Source of the DNA: Micavibrio sp. UBA1850
Lineage (GTDB): Bacteria > Pseudomonadota > Alphaproteobacteria > Micavibrionales > Micavibrionaceae
Assembly: GCA_002338525.1 (NCBI GenBank)
Contig: DDIM01000006.1
Location: 15,315-79,314 of the forward strand
Reading direction: 5' to 3'
DNA length: 64,000 nt
Shown here: positions 13,756-26,824 of the stretch, in pieces
Position numbering within the stretch: position 1 is the first letter of the stretch
Layout of the letters: each line of letters opens with the position of its first letter
Translations under genes and position numbers: made by a program
Notes under the pieces: model-generated
Seen by the model: only the letters and a program-made list of their open reading frames with translations
What the model was told of the DNA's origin: nothing
Databases searched by the model: none

Positions 13756-13820
13756 GAATGTCTTTCCTTTATAATTTTAGCGTTATTACAATGGTTTTAA
13801 ACATGTTAAGATCATTTGTC

Positions 13821-15761
13821 ATGTCGAAAAAAGAAGACCATACAGATAATCATAGCGCAGATGACGTAAAGTCAAACTTTCTGGCAACGATGAGCCACGA
13901 AATGCGAACACCAATGCAGTCTGTCTACGGTCTTTTGGAACTTATTGAGCTAGAAGATACCTCCGACCATGTCAAAGACATGGTAAGAATTGCGAAAGGC
14001 TCGGCCAGCTCCCTTCTTGAAATACTAGATGACGTGCTTGAGCTTTCAAAAATGGATGCGGGTAAGATGGAATTGGATGAATTTGAAATTCCTGTCCGCA
14101 CGCTTGTTCGTGGTGTTAACGAGGCGCTCAGTGTCCGCGTTAAAGAGCGTCCCGTTGAACTCGGCGATGATGTAAGTGACGAAGTGCCTGTTGTGATTAA
14201 AGGGGACCCCAAGCGCCTGAGGCAAGTTTTAATGAACTTGGTTGGTAACGCTTTAAAATTCACAGAAAAAGGCACGGTAAAAACGCTTGTCAAAACAAAA
14301 TCCAAAACGCCCTTAATATTAAGATTTGAAGTGCACGACACAGGAATTGGTATCACACAAGACGCTTGTGATGCGCTCTTTAGCCCTTTTTCTCAGGCCG
14401 ATAGCTCTACCTCACGTAAATTTGGTGGTACAGGGTTGGGGCTGTCTATTTGTCGCAAGCTTGTTGAACTTATGGGCGGCGATATTGGTGTAGAGAGCGT
14501 TTTAGGTGAGGGGACTATATTTTGGTTTGAAATTCCCACTGTTGAAATTGACGCGCGGCAATCTGATCTCGAACTGCCTAATCTTGATGGGCTTTACGTT
14601 TTATCTGTGGAAGATCATCCACAAGGTGCAAAAGAAATTGTAAGCGCGCTCAGCTCAATGGGCGCACAAGTTGAAAGCTGCTCTAATATTGAGGACGCAC
14701 GTAAATTATCTGCAGAGCGGCCTTTTGACGTTGCCATTATCGATCAGGGGTTACCTGATGGTGATGGGCTGACATTGCTTAGACGCTTGTTGGATTTATA
14801 TCCCTTCATGGGCTGTGTGATGTATACCGCGCGCGAAGATGTTGGCCTTAGAAACTCTCTTGGAACATTAGGCGTTTCATATGTCACAAAACCAGCAAGT
14901 CGAAAGGGTTTGGGCGAGGCCGTTCTTGATGCGGCTCAAAAATCAAATTGTAAAAACAAAAGACAAGATATGAAAGAGGGCACGCGTTTGATTATTGCCG
15001 ATGATACGGCAAGTATCCGTGACCTCTTCTCTCGTCAGCTTAAATCTTTAGGCGTTGAGTGCGATATGGTGGCAAATGGTCACGAGCTTTTATCTGCGAT
15101 GAAGAACCGCTCATATGATCTCGTGATTACCGATCTTCATATGCCCGAATGCGATGGCTATGATGTGATTGAACAAATCCGCATGACAGAGCAGGGCAGA
15201 AATAACGATGATCAGGTCAAAGATCACCAAAGCGTTGTTTTATTAACCGCGGACATACAAATGGCAAACCGCCAAACATACAAACAACTCGGGTTTGATG
15301 AATGCCTCTTAAAGCCTGTGACATTGGGACAACTAAAAAGGCTTTTGATACGGTGGGGAATTTTAGATGACGCGCGTCCCTCTGTCTCATCCCCAAAAGG
15401 CTTTGTAGATCAGGGCGAAAGTGACGCAATTGATCTTAAGGCATTGGAAAGGCAACTTGGCGCCATTGATGAAATGGCAATTGAGATGCTCTCCAGCTTT
15501 ATTGAAATGACAAAGCCTTTGATTAATAAGCTCGTTATCGCCTTAAAAAACGATGACATTCATAGTATCAAGCAAACGGCACATTCATTAAAGGGAAGTG
15601 CCCGATCGGCAGGAGCTGTCGTGCTTGGCGATATCGCCTATGAAGTTCAAGAAACCGCAGAAAAAGGAAATGCAATTCATAAGGATATCATAGAAGATAT
15701 TATTGCCGAATTTGACCGTGTGAAAGAACACGTGAAGACAATTGAAGCTTTAAATAAATAG
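13821..15761 (+). CDS. Soluble hybrid histidine kinase: HisKA-HATPase-REC-REC-HPt, with no sensor domain
   Basis: H box FLATMSHEMRTPM lies only ~30 aa from the start. N/G boxes are NLVGNALKFT, HDTGIGI and GGTGLGLSICRKLVELMGG. Two receiver domains (VAIIDQGLPDGDG...TKP; LVITDLHMPECDG...LKP). C-terminal HPt is AHSLKGSARSAGA. The start is the internal ATG at 13821. Confidence 0.85.
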   Translation: MSKKEDHTDNHSADDVKSNFLATMSHEMRTPMQSVYGLLELIELEDTSDHVKDMVRIAKGSASSLLEILDDVLELSKMDAGKMELDEFEIPVRTLVRGVNEALSVRVKERPVELGDDVSDEVPVVIKGDPKRLRQVLMNLVGNALKFTEKGTVKTLVKTKSKTPLILRFEVHDTGIGITQDACDALFSPFSQADSSTSRKFGGTGLGLSICRKLVELMGGDIGVESVLGEGTIFWFEIPTVEIDARQSDLELPNLDGLYVLSVEDHPQGAKEIVSALSSMGAQVESCSNIEDARKLSAERPFDVAIIDQGLPDGDGLTLLRRLLDLYPFMGCVMYTAREDVGLRNSLGTLGVSYVTKPASRKGLGEAVLDAAQKSNCKNKRQDMKEGTRLIIADDTASIRDLFSRQLKSLGVECDMVANGHELLSAMKNRSYDLVITDLHMPECDGYDVIEQIRMTEQGRNNDDQVKDHQSVVLLTADIQMANRQTYKQLGFDECLLKPVTLGQLKRLLIRWGILDDARPSVSSPKGFVDQGESDAIDLKALERQLGAIDEMAIEMLSSFIEMTKPLINKLVIALKNDDIHSIKQTAHSLKGSARSAGAVVLGDIAYEVQETAEKGNAIHKDIIEDIIAEFDRVKEHVKTIEALNK

Positions 15762-15793: not shown

Positions 15794-16519
15794 TTATGGG
15801 CAATCTACAACATCGCCGTGGTTTGTCGCGCTATCAATAATCATCCAGACCCGAAAACAACGGCTCCCTGACGGACATTCTCTCACGCTTGAATCGCCTA
15901 TGGAGTCGCTTGATAGCGCAACATCACCAGATGTTGCATCAATGATATCAGCTTCACATTCACTAAATTTGTCATCCACTTTTTCTAACGCGGTTCGTAA
16001 AAAGGGGTCACTTTTATCCGTTTGAATAAAAAAGAAAACGCCGTCATCACCATTATAATATTCCCAATCTTCAAAAAGACTTGGAGGTTGGGGAAGAAAT
16101 TTACCAGATGAGCCAGAGAATAAAAAAGAATGGTCAGGATCAGAGCCACCGGGATTTCCAGGGCAGCGAATGTTTGAAACATTATTATCACTAGCCGAAC
16201 CGTCAGTCGCCCCTTCATCATCAAAATAGGAATCGGCGGGGTTAATCGGGTAGGGGCTATGCTTTTGCTCGTCTGATGTCAGGCCGTTATCTTCGGAAGG
16301 ATACAGAAGGACACATTCTTGAATGGCTGATTGTATTAATGAGGCTTGATTATAAATGTCGGATACAACGCGAGTGCTGTTTTGATTTTGTGATTGCTGC
16401 CCAGACGGCTCCATGAAACTAACCGTTAGCGCCGCAAGTAACGCAATCGCAATCAAAATATAGACAAGCGCGCTTCCAGAAGCGTTATCCTCTCTATAGT
16501 TTGATCCAAATTTACTCAT
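15794..16519 (-). CDS. Pilin-like protein B (class-III-signal-like N terminus, non-canonical), 241 aa
   Basis: Charged leader ending ...NASG, then SALVYILIAIALLAALTVSF. The globular part is D/S/G-rich with 6 Cys. AGGA lies 6 nt upstream of the ATG. It is the same length as the upstream paralogue. Confidence 0.5.
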   Translation of the reverse strand: MSKFGSNYREDNASGSALVYILIAIALLAALTVSFMEPSGQQSQNQNSTRVVSDIYNQASLIQSAIQECVLLYPSEDNGLTSDEQKHSPYPINPADSYFDDEGATDGSASDNNVSNIRCPGNPGGSDPDHSFLFSGSSGKFLPQPPSLFEDWEYYNGDDGVFFFIQTDKSDPFLRTALEKVDDKFSECEADIIDATSGDVALSSDSIGDSSVRECPSGSRCFRVWMIIDSATNHGDVVDCP

Positions 16520-16550
16520 TACTTATCCTGTTATCTTTATCCCATGTGGC

Positions 16551-16578
16551 AAAAAAGGCGATCTCAGCCGCCTTTTTT
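16551..16578 (-). terminator. Weak hairpin with flanking A/T runs between the two pilin-like genes (possible attenuating terminator)
   Basis: AAAAAAGGCG-atctcagc-CGCCTTTTTT. The GC stem is short but has T runs on either strand. Confidence 0.35.
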
Positions 16579-16601
16579 ATTAAATCTACACTCTTTAGCT
16601 C

Positions 16602-17327
16602 TTAGTTTTCGCTAAGGACGTGGTAGTAATAATTCACACCACCTTGAACAAAGCATCCAAATGATTGGCCGTTAAGAACTGATCCTCCACTGGCTCCAAT
16701 TGTGTCACCATTCGCGGAGACAACACCAAGAGCGTTAGAACCATCACCGTCCTGAAATGTTGTGACATCTATACCAGTTTCTGTAGGAGGCGCGCCAATC
16801 CCTAATTCTTCATGAATTTTATTACAAATACCGTCTCTAACATTTGGTAGAAACGCTATAACTTCTACATCAGAAGATGTCGGCGTTGTCTCAGTCGATG
16901 GATTTGAACCAATATTGTGAACACTGTTTTCTCCATTAAATACCCATGCGCCTGAGCTGCCTGATGTGACGACGTCATTTGGAGCATTCTGGTGAGAGGC
17001 TGATCCGCCGCTGCTACCAAAAACACACGCATCTGGGTCGATATCTTCACAATTATCTATATCTGAAGGAGGGTTAAACATTAGCTCGTCATCACCAATA
17101 CCACCGCTAATTGACATTCTTAGAATTGACGTCTTCAAAGATGCTGGGTACTGCGTAAGGGACGCACTACTAATAAGGCTTGTTTCATCATCTGCGTTAC
17201 CTCCACCACGTGTGGATTGTGTCACAGCATAAGAAAGTGCTGCAAACAGGGCAACGGCAATCAAAATCAAGAACAAGACGTTCCCTCTTTCATGCTCCCG
17301 TGTTGACTTTTGTGTTGTACTTTCCAT
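16602..17327 (-). CDS. Pilin-like protein A (candidate major subunit), 241 aa
   Basis: Leader MESTTQKSTREHERG, then NVLFLILIAVALFAALSYAV. G/S/T/D-rich globular part with 4 Cys. Strong SD AAGGAG 6 nt upstream of the ATG. Confidence 0.5.
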   Translation of the reverse strand: MESTTQKSTREHERGNVLFLILIAVALFAALSYAVTQSTRGGGNADDETSLISSASLTQYPASLKTSILRMSISGGIGDDELMFNPPSDIDNCEDIDPDACVFGSSGGSASHQNAPNDVVTSGSSGAWVFNGENSVHNIGSNPSTETTPTSSDVEVIAFLPNVRDGICNKIHEELGIGAPPTETGIDVTTFQDGDGSNALGVVSANGDTIGASGGSVLNGQSFGCFVQGGVNYYYHVLSEN

Positions 17328-17369
17328 ATCTAACTCCTTTTGGTTTCCCTAGATCTTGTTTTTGCTGTT

Positions 17370-17891
17370 TTACTGAACGCTGACTGTGTTTAAAGCAACA
17401 ACAGCGTTTAATTTATTACCTTTGCATTCGCGCCCGACACACAATGTCTCTATTGAGGCAACCCATCGTCTATCTATATTGGCAACATGCCCGAGAGCCT
17501 CTCTAAATTGACTGTATGTCTGTAATTCTTGACCACTAAGCGTAACCTGATTCTGTTTAGTTTCAAAGTTCAAACTAGGGTAAACCTTTTTTAAAGTATC
17601 AACTTTTTTCTTGAGCGCATCGTTAGAAACGCTCGAAGTTTTTATATTCGGGATCTTAGGTTGAATGGCGGCCTTTTCAGAGAGCTCGGACTTAATACTC
17701 GCAAGCTCTTTAGTTTGCACCATGGTGTAAAGACCTAACGCAGCAACAACCGCCCATACCACACCAACCGTGATAAGGGCTGTCTTCCCAACATGGTCAG
17801 GAAGAGACTCTAAAAACTTGTTTAGGTCTTGACTGGCCCCTGGCTTTAAATATTTAGCAAGCTGGGAAAAATTAAAGTCTTGTGCGCTCAA
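17370..17891 (-). CDS. Bitopic assembly protein, GspM/PilO-like (173 aa)
   Basis: Short cytoplasmic N terminus, one TM helix (TALITVGVVWAVVAALGLYTMV), then a coiled-coil-like stretch and a small periplasmic domain. The call rests on position and topology only. TTG start. Confidence 0.35.
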   Translation of the reverse strand: MSAQDFNFSQLAKYLKPGASQDLNKFLESLPDHVGKTALITVGVVWAVVAALGLYTMVQTKELASIKSELSEKAAIQPKIPNIKTSSVSNDALKKKVDTLKKVYPSLNFETKQNQVTLSGQELQTYSQFREALGHVANIDRRWVASIETLCVGRECKGNKLNAVVALNTVSVQ

Positions 17892-18024: not shown

Positions 18025-19116
18025 TTATGATTTTCCTCTAATTCTCATTCTTGTGGGGCCGGCCTGATTGTCATCTATAATTTCAACATTTCTAAACTGA
18101 TTACGAATGCTATTGAGGTCCTGAGCAGGAACAAGTGCTTCCCATGTGACGGCCGATTTATTAATCTCGTATTTGACAAGCGTGCCACTGATGTCAGAAA
18201 GATCACTCAAAAGCTCTTGAATGCGCGCATTATGAGTGATGATATCACTATGCATGGCCTTATATGAATTTTCGATCAGCTTATTCGTTGCTTGCTGGGT
18301 TTTAAGTTCAACGTCACTCAGGTCATTTTGTGAAAATGTTAAAGACACCATATCAATTAAAAGCACGGTAATTAAGATAAGCACAATGCCCAAGCCTGAA
18401 AACAAAAGTGTACGCGTGAGGGCTCTTGCCAATTTTTCAGTGCGAAGTTGAATGTTGCGCCATGGAATAACATGCGGGTTATCTTTACCAATTGTCACAA
18501 AGTTTGTATCCATACTTTGAATTTTTGGCAAAATTGTTCGGCTTCCTCCAATGAAGAGTTGAACGCGACCCGTCTCATCGTTCCATCGTAGCGCCGCAGT
18601 ACTAGCGTCTTGTTCGTAAACATAAACCGTTTGCTTGTCGATAAATTCAGGATTCCCAGGAAGCGCAGCAACAAGGGGGCACCAGCTATCTGGCGCTGAT
18701 GTTAATGTCGACGAAGGACAGGCAATATAGGTGACTTTTTCTTCAGCCAAATCCACAGTATAGGAAAAGTGAACCTTCTCTGTGGCACAAGCCTGCGAGG
18801 CAGCGTTCCACACGGCCTCAACTTCCATCCCAACAACGTATGGAACTTCTCCTGCAATAAGCTCTATGGGAAGGTAAGGGGTCAGTTCATCCTTAAAATC
18901 GCTGACCTCGCCTGCAATATAGTCTGCAATCGAGGGCTTAACACTTTGAGGAGTAATACTTTCCGCTGCAGGTGTCGCAAGACCTTGAGGTTGTTCTGGC
19001 TCACCGAACGTAGGCTGCATTTGATCATGAGCAAGAGGCTCTTTCTTGCCCGTTAATTTGGCAATAAAGTTTTTTGCTTTTTTTGCAAACATTTGCTGTT
19101 TTGATTCCAACGTCAT
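18025..19116 (-). CDS. Bitopic assembly protein, GspL / fused PilM-PilN-like (363 aa)
   Basis: ~225-aa cytoplasmic part, a single TM helix (LLFSGLGIVLILITVLLIDMV) and a ~110-aa periplasmic part. Its start overlaps the platform gene stop (TAATG at 19114-19118). Confidence 0.35.
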   Translation of the reverse strand: MTLESKQQMFAKKAKNFIAKLTGKKEPLAHDQMQPTFGEPEQPQGLATPAAESITPQSVKPSIADYIAGEVSDFKDELTPYLPIELIAGEVPYVVGMEVEAVWNAASQACATEKVHFSYTVDLAEEKVTYIACPSSTLTSAPDSWCPLVAALPGNPEFIDKQTVYVYEQDASTAALRWNDETGRVQLFIGGSRTILPKIQSMDTNFVTIGKDNPHVIPWRNIQLRTEKLARALTRTLLFSGLGIVLILITVLLIDMVSLTFSQNDLSDVELKTQQATNKLIENSYKAMHSDIITHNARIQELLSDLSDISGTLVKYEINKSAVTWEALVPAQDLNSIRNQFRNVEIIDDNQAGPTRMRIRGKS

Positions 19117-20336
19117 TAAAGCGCGCCTTCCATAAGTCCACCCATCATACTGTCCATACTAACGTTCATCACGGTCAAAGCATAGATCGCACTACCAAAC
19201 GCAAGTGCAAGATAAGCCCCGGTGAGAACAAACGCCAGCCAAACAATGAGTTTGTGTTTTGTCCGAGAGGATTGCGTTCGCATTTCTGCAATCGCATCCA
19301 TAATAGTAGCAACCTGATCAAGATCCGACAAGGTCGCAAGTTCTAAACGCTCTGCCCGCGTCAAAGGAGGTTTATCAAGGGCCGACCCCAAATTAATACC
19401 GCGAGAGAGTTGTTCAACGGCATTTGTCCAATATTGGGAAACCTCGGGCACTGTTGTTGCGTTTGCAGATTCTTCCAAAGCATCAATAATAGACACCTTT
19501 CCTTTAATCATACGAGAGGCCGCCGCCATCGAGTCAGAGAAACCAAGGTCTCGTAAATATCCACCAATAAGAGGGATTTTCCTAACCATACGCGCCGTCG
19601 GCCAGTCTTTTTTACCTCTGTTAATGATATAAGAAAATACAGCCCACGCCATAAACGCACCCATGGCAAAAGCAAAGTAAATCAAAAGATCCCACGTCAG
19701 CTGAAGATTACCAACCACGCGTTCAAACTTCTCAAGCTCGGCAGGGTCTGTCGGTTTGTTATCCATAAACCAATCAATAATCATGCCTTTTCCCCAAAAA
19801 AGGGATTGCACGATGGTAAAAACGTCAAATCCTAGCCATGCGAGTGTCCCCATAATCGCCTGATTGTTTTTACGTTTTTGTGTAATCGACTGAATGGCAT
19901 GGGGAATACCTTCATATAGCTTATTGGCGCGCTCACTGGCCGACAAAATAGAAAGCGTCCCATGGTCAAAAATGTTTAGGGCTTTGAGCGCGTCAATCGC
20001 ACCTAAGCCTCTTGATAACGCTTCACGGGCAGGCGCTAGAATATTCTGGCGACGCGGGCTTGTCTCAGACTCGATAAGATTCCAAAGGGCAACACCAGGA
20101 GACGTTGATGACGAGCGGAATTGAATACCGCGCAAAAGTTGAACCTGCCACCAGCTAGAGCGTGCTAAAATACGCTCCAAGGGTGTGCGTTCATGTTGAC
20201 GGATGTTGAGGACATAGCCCCCCATATTTTCAACAGCAGTACGCACGTCTTGACGCGTAGGAAGGTAAAAAGATTCCTCCCTCGTGATCACGCCACGGCG
20301 ATTTTGAAATGCGATTTCAACAATCCACTGCTGCAT
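19116..20336 (-). CDS. GspF/PilC-family inner-membrane platform protein
   Basis: 406 aa with two repeats of a helical cytoplasmic domain plus TM segments. IPLIGGYLRDLGFSDSMAAASRMIKGKVSIIDALEE...LSRGINLGSAL resembles the T2SSF repeat. Confidence 0.65.
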   Translation of the reverse strand: MQQWIVEIAFQNRRGVITREESFYLPTRQDVRTAVENMGGYVLNIRQHERTPLERILARSSWWQVQLLRGIQFRSSSTSPGVALWNLIESETSPRRQNILAPAREALSRGLGAIDALKALNIFDHGTLSILSASERANKLYEGIPHAIQSITQKRKNNQAIMGTLAWLGFDVFTIVQSLFWGKGMIIDWFMDNKPTDPAELEKFERVVGNLQLTWDLLIYFAFAMGAFMAWAVFSYIINRGKKDWPTARMVRKIPLIGGYLRDLGFSDSMAAASRMIKGKVSIIDALEESANATTVPEVSQYWTNAVEQLSRGINLGSALDKPPLTRAERLELATLSDLDQVATIMDAIAEMRTQSSRTKHKLIVWLAFVLTGAYLALAFGSAIYALTVMNVSMDSMMGGLMEGAL

Positions 20337-20364: not shown

Positions 20365-22149
20365 CTACGAGTCAAGATATGAGATTGCAGAAACAGGATC
20401 GACCAAGCCACTAACGACAAGATCAACAAGACCGCTTTGTCTCGTGTAGCTGTGTACACCATCCTGCTTCACAATATTATTAACGTTACTCATTAATGCT
20501 TCAAAAATCTCGTTTCTCTCTGAAGGGCCAAGATTGATCGTCAAGGCATCCAGCAGCAATGTTCGTCCAGCAATACCCGTTCTGTTGCAAAGTTCACACC
20601 CAGACGAGTTTTGCCTACGGATCATTGTTTCTTCAGGAATATTAAACGTTTCAAGCATAGTCGGCGGCAACACATCACCAATACGGTCGCGGTGCGCACA
20701 TGCTTGGCAAAGCGTCTTAACCAATCTCTGGTTCATTATACATCTAACTTGCTGCGCAAGCGTAAAAGTTGATGAACGTTCACGATCGGTCGGCATCAAA
20801 GATTTCAAACGTTCAAATGTTTGAAGGGCGGTGTCGGCGTGAACAGTTGAAATAACTGTGTGACCAGATTCCGCTGCTTTTAACGCCGTTTCCACAGTGT
20901 CCATATCACGAAGCTCCCCGATGATAATATAGTCAGGGTCGTGACGCATTGAGGCGCGAATAAGATCAGAAAATCCACCTCCGGGCATTCCCGGGCGAAC
21001 TTGCCACTGTGTGGCATAACGAAGTTCATATTCAATAGGGTCTTCAATGGTCAAAACGTGGCGACGGCGACGATCAATTTCTTGAATACACGCATACATC
21101 GTCGTTGTTTTACCAGATCCCGTCGGGCCGGATAAGATGATAAGACCACCACCCCCCTTAATCTCAGGAGACAAAAGCCTTTGTAATGTCCCGCCGACCT
21201 CTTCATGACGTTTAAACAATTCGTTAAAGCCACGTAGTGAAGCACGGTCAAGAAGACGCATTGTTATCTTCTCACCATCTTGAGCTTGCGGGCCTGCGGC
21301 AACACGCACATCAATCATACGGCCTTGCCATGTAAAACTAAAACGGCCATCTTTAGGTGTGACGCGGTCACCAAAGTTCATGCCCGCATCACGTTTAAGA
21401 AGTGTTGTTAATCGCGCCATGGCATCATTAGGAAGCAAGTGCATCGGCAAAACGTCACCATCAATACGGTAACGAATCCAGTTTGGCGCATCCGGATTGT
21501 TATCTTGCACGAGGTGAATATCTGACACACGAAGTTGTAAAGATTCCGCCATCATATCGCGCACAAATTGATTAAGTAGCAATCCGTTATCAACATCGGC
21601 CAGCCACTCTGCCAAGGTTTTTTCACAACGCCCTGTTGAAAGGTCTCGCACCGAGCGAAGCGTTCTTAAGAGTTCCTGCCTGTCCCAAATTTCAATTTCG
21701 AGGCGTTCAACATAAAATCCTGTTCTATTCGCAGCAGATACAAGAAGATCGATTTGTTTTTCGTTCAACTCGTCAAGGGGCGCCACTTTCAAAACCCCCT
21801 CAGACAAACCAATCAAATGAATATTGAGAGGGAGCCAATATTGCACAGGCAGGTTAGAGCGAAGCGCATCCCCTGTTGCAGAATATTTTGTGCCTTCTTG
21901 TTCGTCTGATTTGTTTGGAGCTGATGCCCCTGCAATATCGAGCAATTGCTCGGTCGACATTGATTTTCCTTGGCTCAGGAACATATTACGCTCACGCTGA
22001 ACCATATCAAGGTAGCGCTCGCGCCCATCATACGCGATTAGGCGACGGTCAGGTTCCTTACGACGTTCCACACCGTTTTGAGGACCAATGTTGACCTTAC
22101 GACGATCGGCGCCTGTACGCTGCGGATCATTATCAACGTTTTCATTCAT
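20365..22149 (-). CDS. GspE/PilB-family secretion ATPase with Arg-rich N-terminal extension
   Basis: Walker A SGPTGSGKTT, Asp box, Walker B IIIGELRD, His box TVHA, tetracysteine CQAC...CELC, and a T2SSE_N-like segment (GVLKVAPLDELNEKQIDLL). Confidence 0.9.
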   Translation of the reverse strand: MNENVDNDPQRTGADRRKVNIGPQNGVERRKEPDRRLIAYDGRERYLDMVQRERNMFLSQGKSMSTEQLLDIAGASAPNKSDEQEGTKYSATGDALRSNLPVQYWLPLNIHLIGLSEGVLKVAPLDELNEKQIDLLVSAANRTGFYVERLEIEIWDRQELLRTLRSVRDLSTGRCEKTLAEWLADVDNGLLLNQFVRDMMAESLQLRVSDIHLVQDNNPDAPNWIRYRIDGDVLPMHLLPNDAMARLTTLLKRDAGMNFGDRVTPKDGRFSFTWQGRMIDVRVAAGPQAQDGEKITMRLLDRASLRGFNELFKRHEEVGGTLQRLLSPEIKGGGGLIILSGPTGSGKTTTMYACIQEIDRRRRHVLTIEDPIEYELRYATQWQVRPGMPGGGFSDLIRASMRHDPDYIIIGELRDMDTVETALKAAESGHTVISTVHADTALQTFERLKSLMPTDRERSSTFTLAQQVRCIMNQRLVKTLCQACAHRDRIGDVLPPTMLETFNIPEETMIRRQNSSGCELCNRTGIAGRTLLLDALTINLGPSERNEIFEALMSNVNNIVKQDGVHSYTRQSGLVDLVVSGLVDPVSAISYLDS

Positions 22150-23669
22150 TACTGATCACTTGTGTTTGTCGTTGTCGTTGTCGCTGCACCGCCCGAAGAT
22201 GAGCCAGTAGAAAGAGAGCGGTCAAACAACAGATTTATCTTATCGCTACCGTTTTTAAACTCTATGCCTGCAGATGTGATGCGCACATCCCACTCTACAC
22301 CGCCAATGACAACAGATTGTTTGTCTTTGACAATACGGCTTCCGCCAGGACCGACGATAATAGCTTTTTGTCCTGAGTGTGAGGTAATTGAAAAACCAGA
22401 TAAAGCATCCAATTTGCGGTAATTCTTTTCAACAACGCCGCCGCGTTCGACAATTGCCTGAGAATCTTTACTGACCGCTCGTGTGGCTTCGCCTCTCACA
22501 GGAACAACAAGAACACCACGCGCCCCGTTATGAACAATTTGAAGATCGTCAAAAATTGCACCTTCACGCACAGGTACCCAACGAAGGGTAAGCGGGCAGG
22601 CTTCTATAGGGCGTAGGATGGCGCCTTCTTGGCACCCTCTGTCCAAAATAGACAGCCCATTGTCAGTGCCTGACAAGTCTATGTCATGTATTGTTAGATC
22701 AGCATCACCGACATTTACCAATGATAGTGATATTGTTGACTCATTTTCGATACCACTTTCAAAGTCTATCTCGTCTTGTGTCGAAACCATCAAGCCACGA
22801 CCTGGAACAGCACTAGGGAAGACTTCTGCAATGTCGGATTCTTCTGGGTCAAACTCACCAGTTAGTGGAATGCTGGCAATGCGAGACGATCCTGAATGTT
22901 CTACAACAATAACAGCGTCTGCTTGACCTGATTGTTGTGGTGCCCATGTTACCGTAGCCAAACAAGCCTCACTTGGATTCAAATCACCACAATCATGGTC
23001 AAGTCTGTAACCAGATTGAGAGGCGGCTGCAATACGCACATTTTTAACCGATAATGGCGTCGCTGTGACGTTTCTGAAAACGACAGATTTGATGAGCGGT
23101 TGGCTTGACGAAAGACTTCCAAAGTCAATTTCATTTGGAATGGCCTCAATGTCACTTAGCACGTTTTGGTTATCTGTGGAGCTTGATTCAACGTCACCAG
23201 CCACCGCCGCAGACGTGATTTGTGAACGTCCATCATTTTGCACAAGCATCGATACGCGCCACGCCCCTGTTTGCAATCCCTTTACGCTAATGACAATAGG
23301 ACATTCTGCTCCGGGAGGCAGAGGCACGTCCTTACATTCGTTTAACTCTACTGCAGCAGAAATTGTAGAAGAGGGGTATAGCTTCACATCCCCAATTTGT
23401 ATAACCCGACCACCATCGTTTCTAAACAACGTAACGACCTGCCCCGTTGATCCCAAGGCAATTTCACCGCCATCAAATTCTTCTTCAACGGGTGTTAAGA
23501 CGCCGGCAGCACCCCCGCCACTAACGGCAATACCTGGATCGAAAAAACCAGAAGACGCATGAGCTGATGTAACGAATGGGGACGTCAATATAACGGTCGA
23601 CAGGCATAATAAACCTATAGATTTTATGGATCCCAATGCCGCCGATTGTGAAAAATTATACCATGTCAT
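22149..23669 (-). CDS. Secreted protein with three ASH / choice-of-anchor-D-like Ig repeats and a PilP/GspC-HR-like C-terminal domain
   Basis: Signal peptide ending SAHA. Three ~110-aa repeats each carry a Cys pair (NECKDVPLPPGAECPIVISV; HDCGDLNPSEACLATVTW; RGCQEGAILRPIEACPLTLRW). The C terminus KAIIVGPGGSRIVKDKQSVVIGGVEWDVRITSAGIEF is PilP-like. The stop overlaps the ATPase start (TAATG). Confidence 0.5.
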   Translation of the reverse strand: MTWYNFSQSAALGSIKSIGLLCLSTVILTSPFVTSAHASSGFFDPGIAVSGGGAAGVLTPVEEEFDGGEIALGSTGQVVTLFRNDGGRVIQIGDVKLYPSSTISAAVELNECKDVPLPPGAECPIVISVKGLQTGAWRVSMLVQNDGRSQITSAAVAGDVESSSTDNQNVLSDIEAIPNEIDFGSLSSSQPLIKSVVFRNVTATPLSVKNVRIAAASQSGYRLDHDCGDLNPSEACLATVTWAPQQSGQADAVIVVEHSGSSRIASIPLTGEFDPEESDIAEVFPSAVPGRGLMVSTQDEIDFESGIENESTISLSLVNVGDADLTIHDIDLSGTDNGLSILDRGCQEGAILRPIEACPLTLRWVPVREGAIFDDLQIVHNGARGVLVVPVRGEATRAVSKDSQAIVERGGVVEKNYRKLDALSGFSITSHSGQKAIIVGPGGSRIVKDKQSVVIGGVEWDVRITSAGIEFKNGSDKINLLFDRSLSTGSSSGGAATTTTTNTSDQ

Positions 23670-23780: not shown

Positions 23781-25658
23781 TTAAAAAACAGGCCTTAAGG
23801 GCACATAGTTTTCTGGGTTTTCTGGCTCTTCAGTATCTTCGTTTGAAATATTATTGGCTGGTACGTCAAATAAAGGTGTCGGTGGGTCTATCTCTACACG
23901 CTCGATAATGACAGGCGCATTGGCTGTCTCTCTCATAGGCGCCTTAATTGGTTTTGCGACCATGGGGGCTTGCACAACGGGCGTATCAGGAGATAACGGC
24001 TGAACAATGACCTCATCTTCAGAAATCACCTCTTGAGCGCGCGGCTGTTCTTTAGACTCTTGAACCTCGTAAGTATCCTTAATAATGACGGTTTCTTGCG
24101 CAGGCTGGACTATTGATGGTGAAACTTCAGCAACAGGGGCTGGAACATCAACACTAACTTGTTTTAAAAACTGGGCGGCTGCTTTTTCAGAGGCAAGCTT
24201 TGCCTCACGCTTCATAGAAATCATTTCAGCCTCAGATGGTGTTGTATAAACAACAACACGCGGGCGAAGCAGGAACACAAGCTCAACATTTGACGTTTGT
24301 GCTGTTCGGCTTGATGGGAAAAGGGGCTCTTGAATACCCGGACCTGATTTGTCAAAATTGTCAATTTCGCGCACAAGACCGGCAATCAACAAAGAATCTC
24401 CCGGGCGGATACGAACTTGGGTAGAAAGTTCACGCTCGGTTGTTTGTGGCAACTGAACAATCGCATCAGGGTTGTCATCAAATGTATCGATGGCACGTAC
24501 CTCTTGAAGCAAAATATCAATATTACCGTATACAGTTGCTTTGTCCCAACTAGAGGCAATATCAAAAGTAAAACCAGTGTCGACGGAATCTGTTTGTGTT
24601 GACACGGTGACTTCGCCTTGGTCAACTGAACGAGAAATTTCAGACACATAGTTTTGAGTGTCTGCAACACGGAAACGAGCATTAGATCCTGATAGAACGG
24701 TAACCTGTGGCTGAGAAATCGTTTTAACAGCTCCATATTCGGAAATAAACTGGAAGACATTATCTCCATCAAATGCCACACCGTTTGTTGTCGGTAACCC
24801 AATACTCACAGGCGTTCCAAGAGACGGATCAGGCACACCTTCTAAGTTGATGCCCAGCTGATATTTACCAAAATTATCAATACTATCCCAATCAATACCC
24901 GTTGAATTTCCAGAGTTAAGCGAAACTTCCCAAATGTAGGTTTCAAATATAATCAGGGCTGTGTTTGATCTAAGGCGCTGAAAATAGCTGTCTGCAACTT
25001 CAGATGTACGGTTTGAGGCGCGGTAGACAAGCGTGCGTGTCGCCTCATCAGTAATAGGTGTTGATCCTACAATTTCTTCAAGAGCAGCAGAGACCCCCGT
25101 TAAAAACTCGTTGTCTTCACCAATTGGGGGCAACGTTACTGTGAATAGCTGCGTGTCTTTTACAACGAGCATGCCATTTTCAAACGAGCAATATAAATCC
25201 GCCAAGCTGCAAACACGAGATACGATGAACTCCAGCTCGCCTTTTAAATTTGTGATTGTAATTGTGCGCTCAAGCCCTTCTGAGCTTTCAAAGGCAATAG
25301 GAATATCAGTTTCGTCCAAAATCAACTGCAAGGCGCCGCCCAATGTCTCACCGCGTAGCTCAAAAGGGCCAACAATCTTTTTTGGCAAAACATCAGATTT
25401 TGCAATTTGCGGAACAAGAATATCATCGCCAAGAGGTAAGTACATAACAGCATCCGGACGTTCGTTGACCGCACGTTTACGTTCTTGTGCAAATTGAGGG
25501 GCGGGGATGTTAACGTTGCGCGTGTCTGGTGCAAAAACTTGTGCGCAAGACCCTAAAAACATAGAGCTTGATGCGACAAGGCCCAATAGGGCGCCCCCAG
25601 ACAATATCCGAGAGAAGAGGGGGGGCTTTAACTGTGTTTTATAATTTTTTAAGGCCAT
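23781..25658 (-). CDS. Secretin-family outer-membrane lipoprotein (T4bP PilN/BfpB/TcpC-like) with Pro/Glu-rich C-terminal tail
   Basis: Lipobox FLGSC. Secretin core KTISQPQVTVLSGSNARFRV...IRPGDSLLIAGLVRE...ELVFLLRPRVV. There are ~154 extra C-terminal residues. Confidence 0.8.
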   Translation of the reverse strand: MALKNYKTQLKPPLFSRILSGGALLGLVASSSMFLGSCAQVFAPDTRNVNIPAPQFAQERKRAVNERPDAVMYLPLGDDILVPQIAKSDVLPKKIVGPFELRGETLGGALQLILDETDIPIAFESSEGLERTITITNLKGELEFIVSRVCSLADLYCSFENGMLVVKDTQLFTVTLPPIGEDNEFLTGVSAALEEIVGSTPITDEATRTLVYRASNRTSEVADSYFQRLRSNTALIIFETYIWEVSLNSGNSTGIDWDSIDNFGKYQLGINLEGVPDPSLGTPVSIGLPTTNGVAFDGDNVFQFISEYGAVKTISQPQVTVLSGSNARFRVADTQNYVSEISRSVDQGEVTVSTQTDSVDTGFTFDIASSWDKATVYGNIDILLQEVRAIDTFDDNPDAIVQLPQTTERELSTQVRIRPGDSLLIAGLVREIDNFDKSGPGIQEPLFPSSRTAQTSNVELVFLLRPRVVVYTTPSEAEMISMKREAKLASEKAAAQFLKQVSVDVPAPVAEVSPSIVQPAQETVIIKDTYEVQESKEQPRAQEVISEDEVIVQPLSPDTPVVQAPMVAKPIKAPMRETANAPVIIERVEIDPPTPLFDVPANNISNEDTEEPENPENYVPLRPVF

Positions 25659-25753: not shown

Positions 25754-26110
25754 TTAACTTGGTACTGATCGTGCGACCATCTTTAAAAGTCTGTCTTTTT
25801 CAACGGGTTTCATTAATGTCGCCTTTACCCCAAATGCTGATGCTTCACTTAAAAGATCCGGGCTTTGATCTCCGGTAATAAAAATAACCGGCGTTTGATT
25901 GTTTTTTGATCGTAATGACTTTACAAACTCGATGCCGTCTACAGGCTCCATGCGAACGTCAATGATGGCCAGCTTAATGTCATCTGTCATTGAGTTGAGG
26001 GCCGTTAGGCCATCAGTCGCCTCAACAACCTCATACCCGTCGGCTGTTAAGAAGCGATTGATTTGCATTCTGACGAAATCATTATCTTCTGCGAGAAGAA
26101 TTTTAGACAT
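25754..26110 (-). CDS. Single-domain CheY-like response regulator
   Basis: 118 aa. ILLAEDND, LAIIDVRMEPVDG and ATLMKP are the receiver signature residues. Confidence 0.9.
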   Translation of the reverse strand: MSKILLAEDNDFVRMQINRFLTADGYEVVEATDGLTALNSMTDDIKLAIIDVRMEPVDGIEFVKSLRSKNNQTPVIFITGDQSPDLLSEASAFGVKATLMKPVEKDRLLKMVARSVPS

Positions 26111-26314: not shown

Positions 26315-26824
26315 ATGGATTTTGTTTTAATGCTTTCGGCTTTTTTTAGTGTTGCTACCGCTCTTGTTTTGCTGGCAACGCTTGCTGTTATTGATTTCAA
26401 AACAATGTACCTCCCCAATATTTACGTTTTTCCGTTTGCTGTGCTTGGCGTTGTATTCCATGTGTTAACAGGCTTTACGCTCATTTCATGCCAGGATATG
26501 CTGGTAGGGGCTGCATTTGGGTATGGCGTTTTGTGGTTAATACGATTTTTTGGCAACATGTACTACAAAACGGATTCCTTAGGCTTGGGCGACGTTAAGC
26601 TTATGGGGGCGGCTGGATTATGGCTTGGGTTCGCCAGTGTAACAACGGCGCTGACATTAGGGGCTGCTGCGGGGCTGTGTCATGGATTAATCGTTGCGTA
26701 TTTCAACTCAAGAAAAACAGGATCGTTTAATATTCAGCGCCTAAAAATACCCGCCGGACCCGGTTTTATCATCGGGATCACGATCATGATCATCATTGAT
26801 ATTTTTCCATATTTTACGAGGTAG
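26315..26824 (+). CDS. Short A24-family prepilin peptidase (no N-terminal methyltransferase / Zn domain)
   Basis: 169 aa, polytopic. AVIDFKTMYLP and LGLGDVKLMGAAGLWLG carry the two catalytic Asp motifs. Confidence 0.85.
   Translation: MDFVLMLSAFFSVATALVLLATLAVIDFKTMYLPNIYVFPFAVLGVVFHVLTGFTLISCQDMLVGAAFGYGVLWLIRFFGNMYYKTDSLGLGDVKLMGAAGLWLGFASVTTALTLGAAAGLCHGLIVAYFNSRKTGSFNIQRLKIPAGPGFIIGITIMIIIDIFPYFTR

What the first reader, a model, noticed from the sequence alone, without database searches (positions are those of the whole stretch)
15794..17327. Tandem 241-aa pilin-like paralogues lacking Phe+1 and Glu+5
Both proteins have a short charged leader ending in Gly followed by a ~20-residue hydrophobic helix (HERG/NVLFLILIAVALFAALSYAV and NASG/SALVYILIAIALLAALTVSF). 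That is the class III signal architecture. However, the residue after the Gly is Asn or Ser, and position +5, almost invariantly Glu in type IV pilins and pseudopilins other than GspK, is Leu or Tyr. The globular parts are Gly/Ser/Asp/Thr-rich, have even Cys counts (4 and 6), and share no pilin motif I recognise. The first gene has a strong SD (AAGGAG) and is followed by a weak hairpin with a T run, an arrangement typical of a major subunit followed by a minor one. They could be a new pilin family processed by the adjacent methylase-less peptidase. Alternatively they could be signal-anchored substrates of the machine.
Basis: partly seen in the sequence, partly recalled or inferred. Interest (0 to 1): 0.65.

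Follow-up and report, generated by a model that had tools for sequence, protein, structure and literature searches.

The report
New Glu5-less pilin-like pair, Micavibrio-type machine
Two adjacent genes encode proteins that look like the subunits of a bacterial type IV pilus but lack the family's signature residues. They sit at the end of a pilus/secretion-machine operon conserved in hundreds of relatives of the predatory bacterium Micavibrio, so they are probably an unrecognised kind of pilin.

Summary
There are two 241-aa ORFs on the minus strand, P1 (16602-17327) and P2 (15794-16519). Each has a short charged leader ending in Gly, followed by a ~20-residue hydrophobic helix. Position +1 is Asn in P1 and Ser in P2; position +5 is Leu in P1 and Tyr in P2.

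They are not detectable paralogues beyond the first ~33 residues. Neither matches any Pfam, NCBIfam or PDB sequence family.

Both are large, uncharacterised families confined to Micavibrio-type alphaproteobacteria. They almost always end one operon: lipoprotein secretin, Ig-like protein, GspE/PilB-type ATPase, PilC/GspF-type platform, two orphan membrane proteins, P1, P2. A dedicated methylase-less A24 prepilin peptidase is transcribed divergently.

In P1, Gly(-1), Asn(+1) and the following 21 residues are amino-acid-identical in 78 gene copies (77 of 81 sources), while their codons are saturated with synonymous change.

P1 is the most expressed gene of the cluster, both in published M. aeruginosavorus RNA-seq and in marine metatranscriptomes. 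It is often followed by a terminator.

Best reading (about 0.7): P1 is the major and P2 the minor subunit of a divergent type IV filament that works without Glu5 or N-methylation. Cleavage, polymerisation and a pilin fold are not shown.

The parts
16602..17327 (-). P1: candidate major subunit. Leader of 15 aa ending E-R-G; predicted mature N-terminus NVLFLILIAVALFAALSYAVTQSTRGGG; globular part has two Cys pairs (C93/C101, C168/C225).
   Evidence: ORF. Family size and N-terminal invariance. AF2 model with pLDDT 79.5. Cys pairing pattern. Expression.
15794..16519 (-). P2: candidate minor subunit. Leader of 15 aa ending A-S-G; predicted mature N-terminus SALVYILIAIALLAALTVSFMEPS, with invariant Tyr+5 and near-invariant Pro+23; six invariant Cys.
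   Evidence: ORF. Family. AF2 model with pLDDT 82.6. Best-probability Foldseek matches are C. difficile PilA1 but not significant. Low expression.
17334..17339 (-). Shine-Dalgarno AAGGAG, 6 nt upstream of the P1 start codon.
   Evidence: Read directly from the sequence.
16550..16579 (-). Weak hairpin plus U6 run between P1 and P2: a candidate leaky intrinsic terminator.
   Evidence: Fold, not significant alone. Unrelated, strong G+C hairpins with a T run sit at the same place in 29 of 59 related loci. A metatranscriptome contig ends at 16585.
17370..17891 (-). p173: bitopic membrane protein (short cytoplasmic N-terminus, one TM helix, ~110-aa periplasmic part). Travels with P1 and P2.
   Evidence: No Pfam, NCBIfam or PDB match, even as a profile. 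Present next to P1 in 77 of 80 loci, including loci where the machine is elsewhere. A PilO/GspM-like role is inferred from architecture only.
18025..19116 (-). p363: bitopic membrane protein (~225-aa cytoplasmic part, one TM helix, ~110-aa periplasmic part).
   Evidence: No match in any library. Conserved in 62 of 80 loci. A GspL/PilM-N-like role is inferred from architecture only.
19116..20336 (-). Inner-membrane platform protein, PilC/GspF type, divergent.
   Evidence: Pfam T2SSF 7.5e-6, just above its cut-off; NCBIfam ComGB/GspF/PilC hits are weak. Median 69% identity across loci.
20365..22149 (-). Assembly ATPase of the GspE/PilB type.
   Evidence: Pfam T2SSE 4.3e-76. Closest solved relatives are GspE (5e-51) and PilF/PilB; BfpD (1e-22) and CpaF/FlaI (about 1e-10) are far.
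22149..23669 (-). p506: exported protein with Ig-like (ASH / choice-of-anchor D) domain. Role unknown.
   Evidence: Pfam ASH 1.6e-13; NCBIfam choice_anch_D 1.1e-10. Conserved between the secretin and ATPase genes in 55 loci.
23781..25658 (-). Outer-membrane secretin with a lipoprotein signal (…FLGSC).
   Evidence: Pfam Secretin 5e-15. Best NCBIfam hits are MshL (1e-28) and type IVb PilN (4.9e-19), both below cut-off. Lipobox pattern in 44 of 52 orthologues.
25754..26110 (-). Single-domain response regulator at the head of the operon.
   Evidence: Pfam Response_reg 8.9e-24. Syntenic in 50 loci.
26315..26824 (+). Dedicated prepilin-type aspartic peptidase (A24) without a methyltransferase domain, transcribed divergently.
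   Evidence: Pfam Peptidase_A24 only. Asp27 and the G-L-G-D93-V-K motif are invariant in 15 orthologues. Syntenic in 47 loci.
13758..15761 (+). Hybrid histidine kinase (HisKA-HATPase-REC-REC-Hpt), convergent with P2.
   Evidence: Pfam domains. A homologue is found in 55 of 80 loci, usually convergent right after P2.

Best explanation
P1 and P2 are the filament subunits of a compact, divergent type IV filament machine that is characteristic of Micavibrio-type alphaproteobacteria.

Proposed mechanism. Both are inserted in the inner membrane by their N-terminal helix. The operon's own A24 peptidase cuts after the invariant Gly, giving mature N-termini Asn1 (P1) and Ser1 (P2). Because that peptidase has no methylase domain, the new N-terminus is not methylated.

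The GspE/PilB-type ATPase and the PilC-like platform then lift subunits out of the membrane and stack them into a helical fibre. The core of the fibre is the invariant hydrophobic helix. The fibre passes the lipoprotein secretin.

P1 is the abundant major subunit. P2 shares only the N-terminal module and is made at about a tenth of the level, so it is a minor subunit that primes or caps the fibre.

The canonical Glu5/N-terminal-amine salt bridge is absent, so packing must be purely hydrophobic and polar, as in archaeal type IV filaments. The invariant T-Q-S-x-R-(x)-G-G-G segment of P1 and the M-E-P-S segment of P2 lie where canonical pilins have the melted or kinked part of helix alpha-1.

I lean towards a surface fibre used in prey contact rather than a purely periplasmic pseudopilus.

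What is shown: sequence features, conservation, synteny, and relative transcript levels.
What is inferred: cleavage, lack of methylation, polymerisation, major/minor roles, and the function of the fibre.
For: 1. Gene context. In 80 species-level genomes the order is peptidase(-), RR, secretin, p506, ATPase, platform, p363, p173, P1, P2. Counts: P1 80, P2 74, ATPase 58, secretin 52, peptidase 47; the shortfalls are largely short contigs and the split loci. This includes cultured M. aeruginosavorus HCB189. At least 432 genome hits were confirmed.

2. No canonical G|FTLIE prepilin gene lies within 10 kb of the machine in any locus, nor anywhere in the window.

3. Gly(-1) and Asn(+1) are present in 253 of 253 canonical P1 members. 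Gly(-1), Ser(+1) and Tyr(+5) are present in every P2 member matched by the pattern, 103 of 120.

4. The 22 residues GNVLFLILIAVALFAALSYAVT are identical in 78 gene copies (77 of 81 sources). Every codon is synonymously scrambled (mean nucleotide identity 77%) and there is not a single I/L/V swap.

5. P1 and P2 share only this module. That is the pattern seen between major and minor pilins of one system.

6. An internal control exists. P1-like proteins fused to an anti-sigma-type N-terminus keep the globular domain but have a variable membrane helix.

7. AF2 models (pLDDT 80 and 83) show an N-terminal helix, a break, a ~30-residue helix, then a four-stranded sheet with one helix. For P2 the highest-probability PDB matches are the C. 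difficile pilin PilA1, with TM 0.59 on the target.

8. Cysteines are paired: C93/C101 are present together or absent together (24 versus 6 of 30), and C168/C225 are invariant. The six Cys of P2 are invariant. This indicates an oxidising, exported location.

9. P1 is conserved at the N-terminus and variable, with indels, in its C-terminal half. Overall it is among the least conserved proteins of the cluster (median 47% identity, against 72% for the ATPase; only p173 is lower at 38%).

10. Expression. In M. aeruginosavorus ARL-13 the syntenic gene GMV_1931 has GEI 9.9 in attack phase and 53.8 in attachment phase. GMV_1930 (P2) has 1.8 and 4.1, and the machine genes 0 to 10.8 (PMC3189940 Additional file 4). 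In three marine metatranscriptomes the longest and deepest contigs lie on 16585-17924 (P1 and p173) and none lies on P2; a few short, shallower contigs fall on machine genes and the kinase.

11. Strong hairpin plus T-run terminators follow P1 in 29 of 59 loci.

12. The peptidase keeps both catalytic Asp motifs. The ARL-13 annotation lists three 'type IV leader peptidase family' genes; two were seen beside the Tad and type IVa clusters and GMV_1939 beside this one, which suggests one per system.
Against: - No experimental evidence exists for cleavage or for a fibre.
- Neither protein matches N_methyl, any pilin or pseudopilin HMM, or any PDB sequence.
- Foldseek finds no significant structural neighbour for P1 and only E 0.2-0.7 for P2.
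- Glu5, thought to be needed for assembly of canonical pilins, is absent.
- Only two pilin-like genes are present, whereas type IVa pili and T2SS use about five.
- The same globular domain occurs on a plain membrane anchor in an anti-sigma-like protein, so it can function while tethered in the membrane.
- The window's own P1-P2 hairpin is weak.
- Contig-based transcript evidence is coarse, and the ARL-13 orthology rests on synteny and gene lengths rather than on sequence.
Confidence: 0.7

Rival explanations
1. Pseudopilins of a type II secretion-like machine. P1 and P2 are cleaved and polymerised as above, but only into a short periplasmic piston that pushes folded hydrolases through the secretin onto or into the prey. 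No surface pilus is made.
For: The ATPase is closest to GspE (5e-51). No retraction ATPase is in the operon. The ARL-13 genome paper counted a 'functional' T2SS lacking annotated GspC/G/H/K and reported T2SS genes up in the attachment phase; this cluster is a plausible candidate for what they counted (PMC3189940; cluster GMV_1930-1939). Epibiotic feeding needs secreted enzymes.
Against: The secretin is a lipoprotein and scores best with MshL and type IVb PilN, not GspD (3e-8 range). No GspC/H/I/J/K/L/M homologue is detectable. P1 is large (226 aa mature) and its C-terminal half is variable with indels. That is usual for exposed pilins and unusual for GspG, which is conserved throughout (own knowledge).
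Confidence: 0.25
2. Uncleaved bitopic inner-membrane proteins. The helix is a permanent anchor, and P1 and P2 act in the periplasm as assembly-platform, scaffold or signalling components rather than as polymerising subunits.
For: The P1 globular domain also exists on an ordinary anchor, fused to an anti-sigma-type cytoplasmic domain, next to an ECF sigma gene. There is no significant pilin fold match. Glu5 is absent.
Against: A mere anchor tolerates I/L/V exchange, as the anti-sigma sub-family itself shows. Here 22 residues, with Gly(-1) among them, are frozen. A dedicated A24 peptidase with intact catalytic motifs is conserved beside the operon and has no other candidate substrate nearby. P1 is expressed 5- to 50-fold above the machine genes. 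A machine with ATPase, platform and secretin but no filament subunit would be without precedent.
Confidence: 0.12
3. Ordinary Sec-exported substrates. The hydrophobic stretch is a signal peptide removed by signal peptidase I (for example after S-Y-A in P1 or T-V-S in P2), and the soluble proteins are cargo of the secretin machine.
For: Small residues at -3 and -1 exist at the end of both helices (sequence). Even numbers of Cys fit exported proteins.
Against: Signal peptides are the least conserved part of exported proteins, yet here the helix is the most conserved part: 18 of 20 positions are invariant in residues 21-40, with no substitutions in 78 gene copies. The hydrophobic region is 20-22 residues, longer than a typical Sec h-region. 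Two unrelated globular domains share the same 'signal'.
Confidence: 0.04

Closest known systems
Type IVb pilins and their compact operons (TcpA/TcpB, CofA/CofB, BfpA, R64 PilS/PilV)
   Same: - Long leader (median 15 aa here) and a non-Phe residue at +1.
- Large mature subunit (~226 aa).
- A long-range Cys pair in the C-terminal half (C168/C225).
- One major plus one minor pilin gene at the end of a single operon.
- A lipoprotein secretin related to PilN/MshL.
- No retraction ATPase in the operon.
   Different: - Type IVb pilins keep Glu5 and are N-methylated by a bifunctional peptidase (own knowledge). Here +5 is Leu or Tyr and the peptidase has no methylase domain.
- The ATPase is much closer to GspE/PilB than to BfpD.
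- There is no sequence or significant structural match to any type IVb pilin.
Type II secretion pseudopilins (GspG major; GspK, a minor pseudopilin that naturally lacks Glu5)
   Same: A GspE-like ATPase, a GspF-like platform, a secretin and an A24 peptidase in one locus. GspK shows that a Glu5-less subunit can be built into a type IV filament (own knowledge). IMG annotates some P2 homologues as 'pseudopilin PulG'.
   Different: No T2SSG or N_methyl HMM hit. Here the presumed major subunit also lacks Glu5. No GspC/H/I/J/L/M are recognisable. The secretin is not GspD-like.
Archaeal type IV pilins/archaellins and bacterial Tad (Flp) pilins
   Same: They are processed by A24 peptidases that lack the methyltransferase domain. 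Archaeal subunits also lack Glu5 and pack by hydrophobic contacts (own knowledge).
   Different: The ATPase and platform here are of the bacterial GspE/PilB and PilC type; FlaI and CpaF score only about 1e-10. Flp pilins are 50-80 aa with a G|xxxxEY motif. M. aeruginosavorus has a separate Tad locus with its own Flp gene and peptidase (GMV_527-538).
Canonical type IVa pilins (PilA/PilE; Pfam N_methyl, TIGR02532 GFxxxE)
   Same: Gly at -1, a ~20-residue hydrophobic alpha-1N, then a helix break about 20-25 residues into the mature protein (Pro+23 in P2). Several positions agree in register with the recalled consensus (L3, I8, A11, L16); that comparison is from memory, so it is a lead and not a test.
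   Different: Phe1 and Glu5 are absent and no HMM match is found. ARL-13 encodes canonical prepilins and a separate PilB/PilC/PilT/PilD/secretin set elsewhere (GMV_1530-1544). The odd signal is therefore specific to this system and is not drift across the lineage.

Membership tests
Type IV pilin superfamily (class III signal peptide) | Short, charged leader ending in Gly(-1), immediately followed by a ~20-residue hydrophobic helix | tested here: met
   Read from the sequence. Gly(-1) is present in 253 of 253 canonical P1 members and in all 103 pattern-matched P2 members.
Type IV pilin superfamily (class III signal peptide) | Glu at mature position +5 | tested here: not met
   +5 is Leu in P1 and an invariant Tyr in P2.
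Type IV pilin superfamily (class III signal peptide) | Match to the N-terminal cleavage/methylation models (Pfam N_methyl PF07963; NCBIfam/TIGR02532) or to any pilin or pseudopilin domain model | tested here: not met
   No hit at E<=1 for the window proteins. Among 61 family members only stray hits appear: PilE_C in 2 members (0.01) and PilX_N in 1 member (0.043).
Type IV pilin superfamily (class III signal peptide) | Pilin fold: long N-terminal helix packed on an antiparallel beta-sheet | tested here: inconclusive
   The AF2 secondary-structure order fits. Foldseek against PDB gives nothing for P1. For P2, C. difficile PilA1 is the top match by probability (0.47 and 0.35; TM 0.59 on the target) but at E 0.2-0.7.
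Type IV pilin superfamily (class III signal peptide) | Encoded with, and dependent on, an assembly ATPase, a platform protein and a prepilin peptidase | tested here: met
   Co-location is conserved in the loci examined. Dependence was not tested.
Type IV pilin superfamily (class III signal peptide) | Cleavage after Gly(-1) by an A24 peptidase, and polymerisation into a filament | not testable with these tools
   Needs N-terminal mass spectrometry or Edman sequencing with and without the peptidase, plus EM.
Type IVb pilins | Long leader, variable +1 residue, ~190-aa or larger subunit, C-terminal disulfide-bounded region, compact operon with one minor pilin | tested here: met
   The disulfide is inferred from invariant or co-varying Cys and has not been observed.
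Type IVb pilins | Glu5, N-methylated +1, a bifunctional peptidase, and a BfpD/TcpT-type ATPase | tested here: not met
   No Glu5. The peptidase is 169 aa with an A24 domain only. The ATPase scores GspE 5e-51 against BfpD 1e-22.
Type II secretion system | GspD-type secretin, GspC/L/M platform partners, and GspG-K pseudopilins | tested here: not met
   GspD model only 6.7e-8, against MshL 1e-28. p363 and p173 have no GspL/M match, even as profiles. No T2SSG-K hits.
Tad/Flp pilins | 50-80-aa subunit with a G|xxxxEY motif, and a CpaF/TadA ATPase | tested here: not met
   Subunits are 241 aa with no E-Y motif. CpaF scores only 8e-11.

The most novel reading that the evidence does not exclude
This would be a previously unrecognised branch of bacterial type IV filaments. 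Its major subunit dispenses with both hallmarks of bacterial pilins, Glu5 and the N-methylated hydrophobic residue 1, and has an N-terminal helix frozen across an entire order.

The fibre would be the prey-contact or feeding organelle of epibiotic Micavibrio-type predators. Its pilin pool or assembly state would be monitored by an ECF anti-sigma factor whose periplasmic sensor is itself a pilin domain.
Probability: 0.3. Interest if true: 0.8.

Novelty: new variant of a known kind. Interest (0 to 1): 0.62.

Why it matters
Three reasons.

1. Detection. Tools that find type IV filament systems require a recognisable pilin. For example, the 'generic' MacSyFinder model of Denise et al. 2019 needs an ATPase, a platform and a major pilin (PMC6668835). 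A machine whose subunits escape every pilin model is therefore miscounted or called incomplete. The M. aeruginosavorus genome paper annotated these two genes as hypothetical and noted missing pseudopilins.

2. Mechanism. Glu5 is treated as close to essential for assembly of bacterial pilins. A natural major subunit without it, with a frozen 22-residue core, would test what is really needed for extraction from the membrane and for packing.

3. Biology. How Micavibrio attaches to and drains its prey is unknown. This operon is conserved across the group, is regulated by its own two-component genes, and its major gene rises about five-fold in the attachment phase. It is a concrete, knock-out-ready candidate in a culturable species.

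Tried and rejected
Searches that found nothing
- Pfam and NCBIfam scans of P1, P2 and the whole operon found nothing for P1, P2, p363 or p173.
- The per-member Pfam scan of 61 homologues gave only stray sub-threshold hits.
- Profile searches of PDB sequences with A1, A2, A3 and A4 found nothing credible. The best was Francisella PilE at E 0.14, over a helix.
- Foldseek of both AF2 models against PDB gave no significant hit.
- Literature searches for Micavibrio/Micavibrionales with pilin, secretin, pseudopilin or non-canonical pilins found no description of this family.
- The sigma-70/terminator consensus scan did not call the P1-P2 hairpin.

Ideas rejected
- P1 and P2 as full-length paralogues: only the N-terminal 33 columns align.
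- ARL-13 GMV_1540-1544 or GMV_902/903 as the orthologous cluster: gene sizes and neighbours show these are the type IVa set and canonical prepilins. The true syntenic cluster is GMV_1929-1941.
- A mobile island: the flanks are housekeeping genes (asd, sdhCA, aspS, pyrB, plsY, dprA, topA, rnr), and pyrB, dprA, topA and rnr follow in the same order in ARL-13.

Not done
- I could not search whole genomes for further proteins carrying the same N-terminal module. The 2,600-odd representative clusters scoring between 1e-10 and 1e-30 against the P1 profile may be fragments or further families; only the top 150 could be seen.
- The third large homology search and the third fold search were left unused, because their top-hit lists would have been filled by the same two families.
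Full report
**1. The observation**

The window carries two minus-strand ORFs of exactly 241 codons, P1 at 16602-17327 and P2 at 15794-16519. Taking Gly as -1, residue +1 is Asn in P1 and Ser in P2, and residue +5 is Leu in P1 and Tyr in P2.

P1 has 4 Cys and P2 has 6. AAGGAG lies 6 nt upstream of the P1 ATG, whereas P2 has only AGGA. Between the genes lies a weak hairpin with a U6 run at 16550-16579, built from four G-C pairs, one G-U pair and an A/U extension. On its own it is not better than shuffled sequence (z -0.31).

A six-frame scan finds the shared motif only in these two ORFs of the 64-kb window.

One word needs correction. The proteins are not demonstrable paralogues. BLASTP finds nothing (E 59), and profile-profile comparison of the two families aligns only the first 33 columns (probability 95%, E 3e-8).

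**2. What surrounds them**

Upstream on the same strand the genes are:
- a single-domain response regulator (25754-26110);
- a secretin (23781-25658; Pfam Secretin 5e-15; best NCBIfam models MshL 1e-28 and type IVb PilN 4.9e-19, both below their cut-offs);
- a 506-aa exported protein with Ig-like ASH/choice-of-anchor-D domains (22149-23669);
- a GspE/PilB-type ATPase (20365-22149; T2SSE 4e-76);
- a divergent PilC/GspF-type platform protein (19116-20336; T2SSF 7.5e-6);
- two bitopic membrane proteins of 363 and 173 aa.

The two bitopic proteins match nothing in Pfam, NCBIfam or PDB, even as family profiles.

Transcribed divergently is a 169-aa A24 prepilin-type peptidase with no room for a methyltransferase domain (26315-26824; Peptidase_A24 4.5e-19). 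Convergent with P2 is a hybrid histidine kinase (13758-15761).

Among solved structures the ATPase is closest to GspE (5e-51) and PilF/PilB (about 1e-45). It is far from BfpD (1e-22) and from CpaF/FlaI (about 1e-10). The secretin starts with a lipoprotein signal (…FLGSC), and the lipobox pattern is found in 44 of 52 orthologues. The flanks are housekeeping genes (asd, sdhCA, sodN, aspS, pyrB, plsY, dprA, topA, rnr), so this is core chromosome and not an island.

**3. Relatives**

P1 has more than 3,000 homologues at 90% clustering and P2 about 1,000. Sources name nearly all of them 'hypothetical protein', and they come from alphaproteobacterial or Micavibrio MAGs. A few P2 homologues carry IMG's 'pseudopilin PulG' label.

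An exhaustive HMM search of 1.84 billion representatives finds 3,906 clusters at E<=1e-3 and 436 at E<=1e-30.

A scan of one genome per GTDB species confirmed at least 432 genomes. The 80 best are all Micavibrio or Micavibrionales-type organisms, some filed under old Bdellovibrionales labels. Two look like mis-binned contigs, labelled Gemmobacter and Patescibacteria. The set includes the cultured M. aeruginosavorus HCB189.

In those 80 loci the gene order peptidase(-), RR, secretin, p506, ATPase, platform, p363, p173, P1, P2, HK(-) recurs almost without change. Components are missing largely where contigs end, plus the split loci described next. The same order is seen in HCB189.

In about a dozen genomes the trio p173-P1-P2 sits alone, more than 9 kb from any machine gene. 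It therefore behaves as a separable 'subunit module', as pilin genes often do.

No ORF with a canonical G|FTLIE-type signal exists within 10 kb of the machine in any locus, nor anywhere in the window.

**4. The N-terminal module is frozen**

In an alignment of 30 P1 homologues that are only about 50% identical overall, E13, G15 and residues 16-36 are invariant. In P2 homologues, G-S-A-L-x-Y-x-L-x-A-x-A-L-L-A are invariant or nearly so, followed by M-E-P-S-x-Q-Q-x-Q.

Across 253 canonical P1-family proteins, Gly(-1) and Asn(+1) never vary, and position -3 is Glu or Gln in 239. P2-family members all show Gly(-1), Ser(+1) and Tyr(+5).

At the DNA level, the 22 codons for GNVLFLILIAVALFAALSYAVT were recovered in 78 gene copies (77 of 81 sources). 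All synonymous codons are used freely (mean nucleotide identity 77%, minimum 64%), yet there is not one amino-acid change, not even an Ile/Leu/Val exchange.

This is far beyond what a membrane anchor or a signal peptide needs. It is what is expected of a helix that must fit a peptidase, a platform and many copies of itself.

The family supplies its own control, described in section 8. In a sub-family where the same globular domain hangs on an anti-sigma-type N-terminus, the membrane helix is freely variable.

**5. The rest of the proteins**

AlphaFold2 with the family alignments gives usable models: P1 with pLDDT 79.5 and pTM 0.74, and P2 with pLDDT 82.6 and pTM 0.76.

Both show a membrane helix (residues 17-33 or 17-35), then a short low-confidence break, then a ~30-residue helix, and finally a domain with four strands and one helix. 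The break is TQSTRGGGNAD in P1 and MEPS in P2, with Pro at mature position 23. The order of elements in the final domain is beta-beta-alpha-beta-beta. This order fits a pilin 'lollipop', but I could not superpose coordinates.

Foldseek against PDB finds nothing for P1. For P2 the matches with the highest probability are the C. difficile major pilin PilA1 (4tsm probability 0.47; 6t8s TM 0.59 on the target), but at E 0.2-0.7, which is not significant. The fold test is therefore inconclusive.

The cysteines behave as disulfides. In P1, C93 and C101 are present together in 24 of 30 sequences, absent together in 6, and never alone; C168 and C225 are invariant. All six Cys of P2 are invariant. This indicates an exported, oxidised location.

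P1 is most conserved at its N-terminus (18 of 20 positions invariant in residues 21-40). It is most variable, with indels, in residues 141-220. Overall P1 is among the fastest-evolving proteins of the cluster (median 47% identity, against 72% for the ATPase and 69% for the platform; only p173 is lower, at 38%). This gradient is typical of exposed major pilins.

**6. Expression**

The M. aeruginosavorus ARL-13 genome paper provides RNA-seq indices for every gene (PMC3189940, Additional file 4; column header checked). The cluster syntenic with this window is:
- GMV_1929: histidine kinase
- GMV_1930: 774 bp, P2
- GMV_1931: 738 bp, P1
- GMV_1932: 531 bp
- GMV_1933: 996 bp
- GMV_1934: 1221 bp
- GMV_1935: ATPase, 1842 bp
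- GMV_1936: 1632 bp
- GMV_1937: secretin
- GMV_1938: response regulator
- GMV_1939: peptidase, 507 bp
- GMV_1941: pyrB

The gene sizes closely match those I read in strain HCB189. The orthology is inferred from synteny and length, not from sequence.

P1 scores 9.9 in attack phase and 53.8 in attachment phase. P2 scores 1.8 and 4.1, and the machine genes score between 0 and 10.8. P1 and P2 are annotated 'hypothetical protein' there. The authors remarked that pseudopilins GspG/H/K were missing from the annotated type II system.

For the window's own organism, a marine bacterium, three independent metatranscriptomes hold matching contigs. Their longest and deepest contigs lie on 16585-17924, that is on P1 and p173. 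A few short, shallower contigs fall on machine genes and the kinase, and none lies on P2. One contig stops at 16585, 6 nt before the hairpin. Contig evidence is coarse, but it agrees with the ARL-13 data.

In 29 of 59 related loci the P1-P2 spacer holds a strong G+C hairpin (-12 to -30 kcal/mol) followed by a T run. The hairpin sequences are unrelated to one another. The other loci have short, coupled spacers.

A major-subunit gene with its own strong ribosome-binding site, followed by a leaky terminator before a minor-subunit gene, is the simplest reading.

**7. How it most likely works**

I conclude, at about 0.7, that P1 and P2 are type IV pilin-like subunits of this machine.

Inferred steps:
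1. Both proteins insert in the inner membrane.
2. The operon's own A24 peptidase cleaves after Gly15. Both catalytic aspartate motifs, I-D27 and G-L-G-D93-V-K, are invariant in 15 orthologues.
3. No N-methylation follows, because the enzyme lacks that domain.
4. The GspE/PilB-type ATPase and the PilC-like platform extract and stack the subunits, with p363 and p173 as GspL/M- or PilN/O-like partners. That role is inferred from their architecture only.
5. The fibre exits through the lipoprotein secretin.
6. P1 forms the bulk of the fibre, and P2 primes or caps it.

From established knowledge, Glu5 is not needed for prepilin cleavage in P. aeruginosa but is needed for methylation and assembly. 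In canonical filaments it pairs with the N-terminal amine of a neighbouring subunit. Archaeal type IV filaments manage without it. The frozen polar residues here (Asn1 or Ser1, Ser17-Tyr18, Thr21-Gln22) may take over that role; this is speculation.

ARL-13's annotation lists three 'type IV leader peptidase family' genes. Two were seen beside the Tad and type IVa clusters, and GMV_1939 sits beside this one. ARL-13 also has canonical Glu5 prepilins elsewhere. The unusual signal is therefore specific to this system and appears to have co-evolved with its own peptidase.

Whether the product is a surface pilus or a periplasmic pseudopilus is open. For a pilus speak the variable outer half of P1, the MshL/PilN-like lipoprotein secretin and the two-pilin layout. 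For secretion speak the GspE-like ATPase, the absence of a retraction ATPase, and the general rise of secretion genes during attachment.

**8. A related finding outside the window**

Among the representatives of the P1 family, eight (P0254, P0263, P0276, P0325, P0327, P0334, P0335, P0361) keep the globular domain and usually the SYAVTQS-R-S-G-G-G segment. They replace the leader by a ~55-residue cytoplasmic extension (M-N/D-D-D-x-L-K-x-M-M…), followed by a variable membrane helix with no Gly-Asn.

In the four contigs that extend upstream (L082, L083, L085 and, with the upstream gene cut, L081), the gene overlaps by 8 nt the end of the gene before it. In L082, L083 and L085 that gene is an ECF sigma-factor gene. 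In all five contigs (L081-L085) another gene follows; in the four that could be read (L081, L082, L084, L085) it encodes a normal P1-type protein with the E-x-G-N-V-L-F-L… signal, about 40% identical to the window's P1.

That is the layout of a sigma/anti-sigma pair whose periplasmic sensor is a pilin-like domain. It has two consequences. It keeps alive the rival that the domain can work while tethered. It also suggests a way for the cell to monitor its pilin pool.

**9. Comparison with what is known, and novelty**

In layout the system works most like a type IVb pilus: long leader, non-Phe +1, large subunit with a long-range Cys pair, one major plus one minor pilin, lipoprotein secretin, single operon. 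In its motor it resembles a type II secretion system.

It fails defining tests of every named family. It has no Glu5, no N_methyl or pilin HMM match, no methylase, no GspD/C/L/M or GspG-K, no Flp motif, and no FlaI/CpaF-type ATPase.

I found no paper describing it. The current detection logic for type IV filaments requires a recognisable pilin (PMC6668835).

I therefore file it as a new variant of a known kind: a type IV filament system with a non-canonical, Glu5-less, unmethylated subunit signal. It is taxonomically broad within Micavibrio-type predators and testable in a culturable species. Interest is 0.62. The case is strong and coherent but entirely computational, and the key steps (cleavage, fibre, function) remain to be shown.

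Noticed in passing
L082 4698-6879; L083 3855-5520; L085 6091-8296; L081 202-1838; L084 425-1845 (not in the window): A three-gene module: an ECF sigma factor, then an anti-sigma-like protein, then a normal P1-type gene with the E-x-GNVLFL… signal. The sigma-factor gene is identified in L082, L083 and L085; the upstream gene is cut and unidentified in L081 and L084. The anti-sigma-like protein has a periplasmic domain homologous to P1, about 42% identical for L082's copy, on a variable membrane helix with no Gly-Asn. This looks like a pilin-domain anti-sigma factor.
   Followed up: partly
window 17370-17891 and 18025-19116: The 173-aa and 363-aa bitopic membrane proteins of the operon have no detectable relative in Pfam, NCBIfam or PDB, even as family profiles. 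By topology they could stand in for GspM/PilO and GspL/PilM-N. p173 stays with P1 and P2 even where the machine genes are elsewhere (about a dozen of 80 loci).
   Followed up: partly
window 22149-23669: A 506-aa exported protein with Ig-like ASH/choice-of-anchor-D domains is conserved between the secretin and ATPase genes in 55 loci. It has no counterpart in textbook type IV pilus or type II secretion operons. Its role is unknown.
   Followed up: no
window 13758-15761 and 25754-26110: A hybrid histidine kinase (HisKA-HATPase-REC-REC-Hpt, with no obvious sensor or membrane segment) and a stand-alone receiver protein bracket the operon. A kinase homologue is found in 55 and the receiver protein in 50 of 80 loci, usually in the same bracketing positions. 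This suggests a dedicated phosphorelay controlling the machine.
   Followed up: no
L001 5349-7672: The closest relative's contig carries P1, P2 and then a second P1 copy with a nearly identical leader (HKKNGGDR[T/A]NEQG). This is a tandem duplication of the major-subunit gene.
   Followed up: partly
L024 and L079: Contigs carrying this Micavibrio-type locus are filed in MAGs labelled Gemmobacter sp. and Patescibacteria group bacterium. They are probably mis-binned contigs rather than true occurrences outside the group.
   Followed up: no
window 9670-10131: A nickel superoxide dismutase (Sod_Ni, 2e-25) lies next to the sdh genes. This fits the marine origin indicated by the sequencing runs that hold this DNA.
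   Followed up: no
window 17100-17919 (run X15): One metatranscriptome contig over p173 and the start of P1 differs from the window at 38 positions. A closely related strain is therefore also transcribing this module.
   Followed up: no
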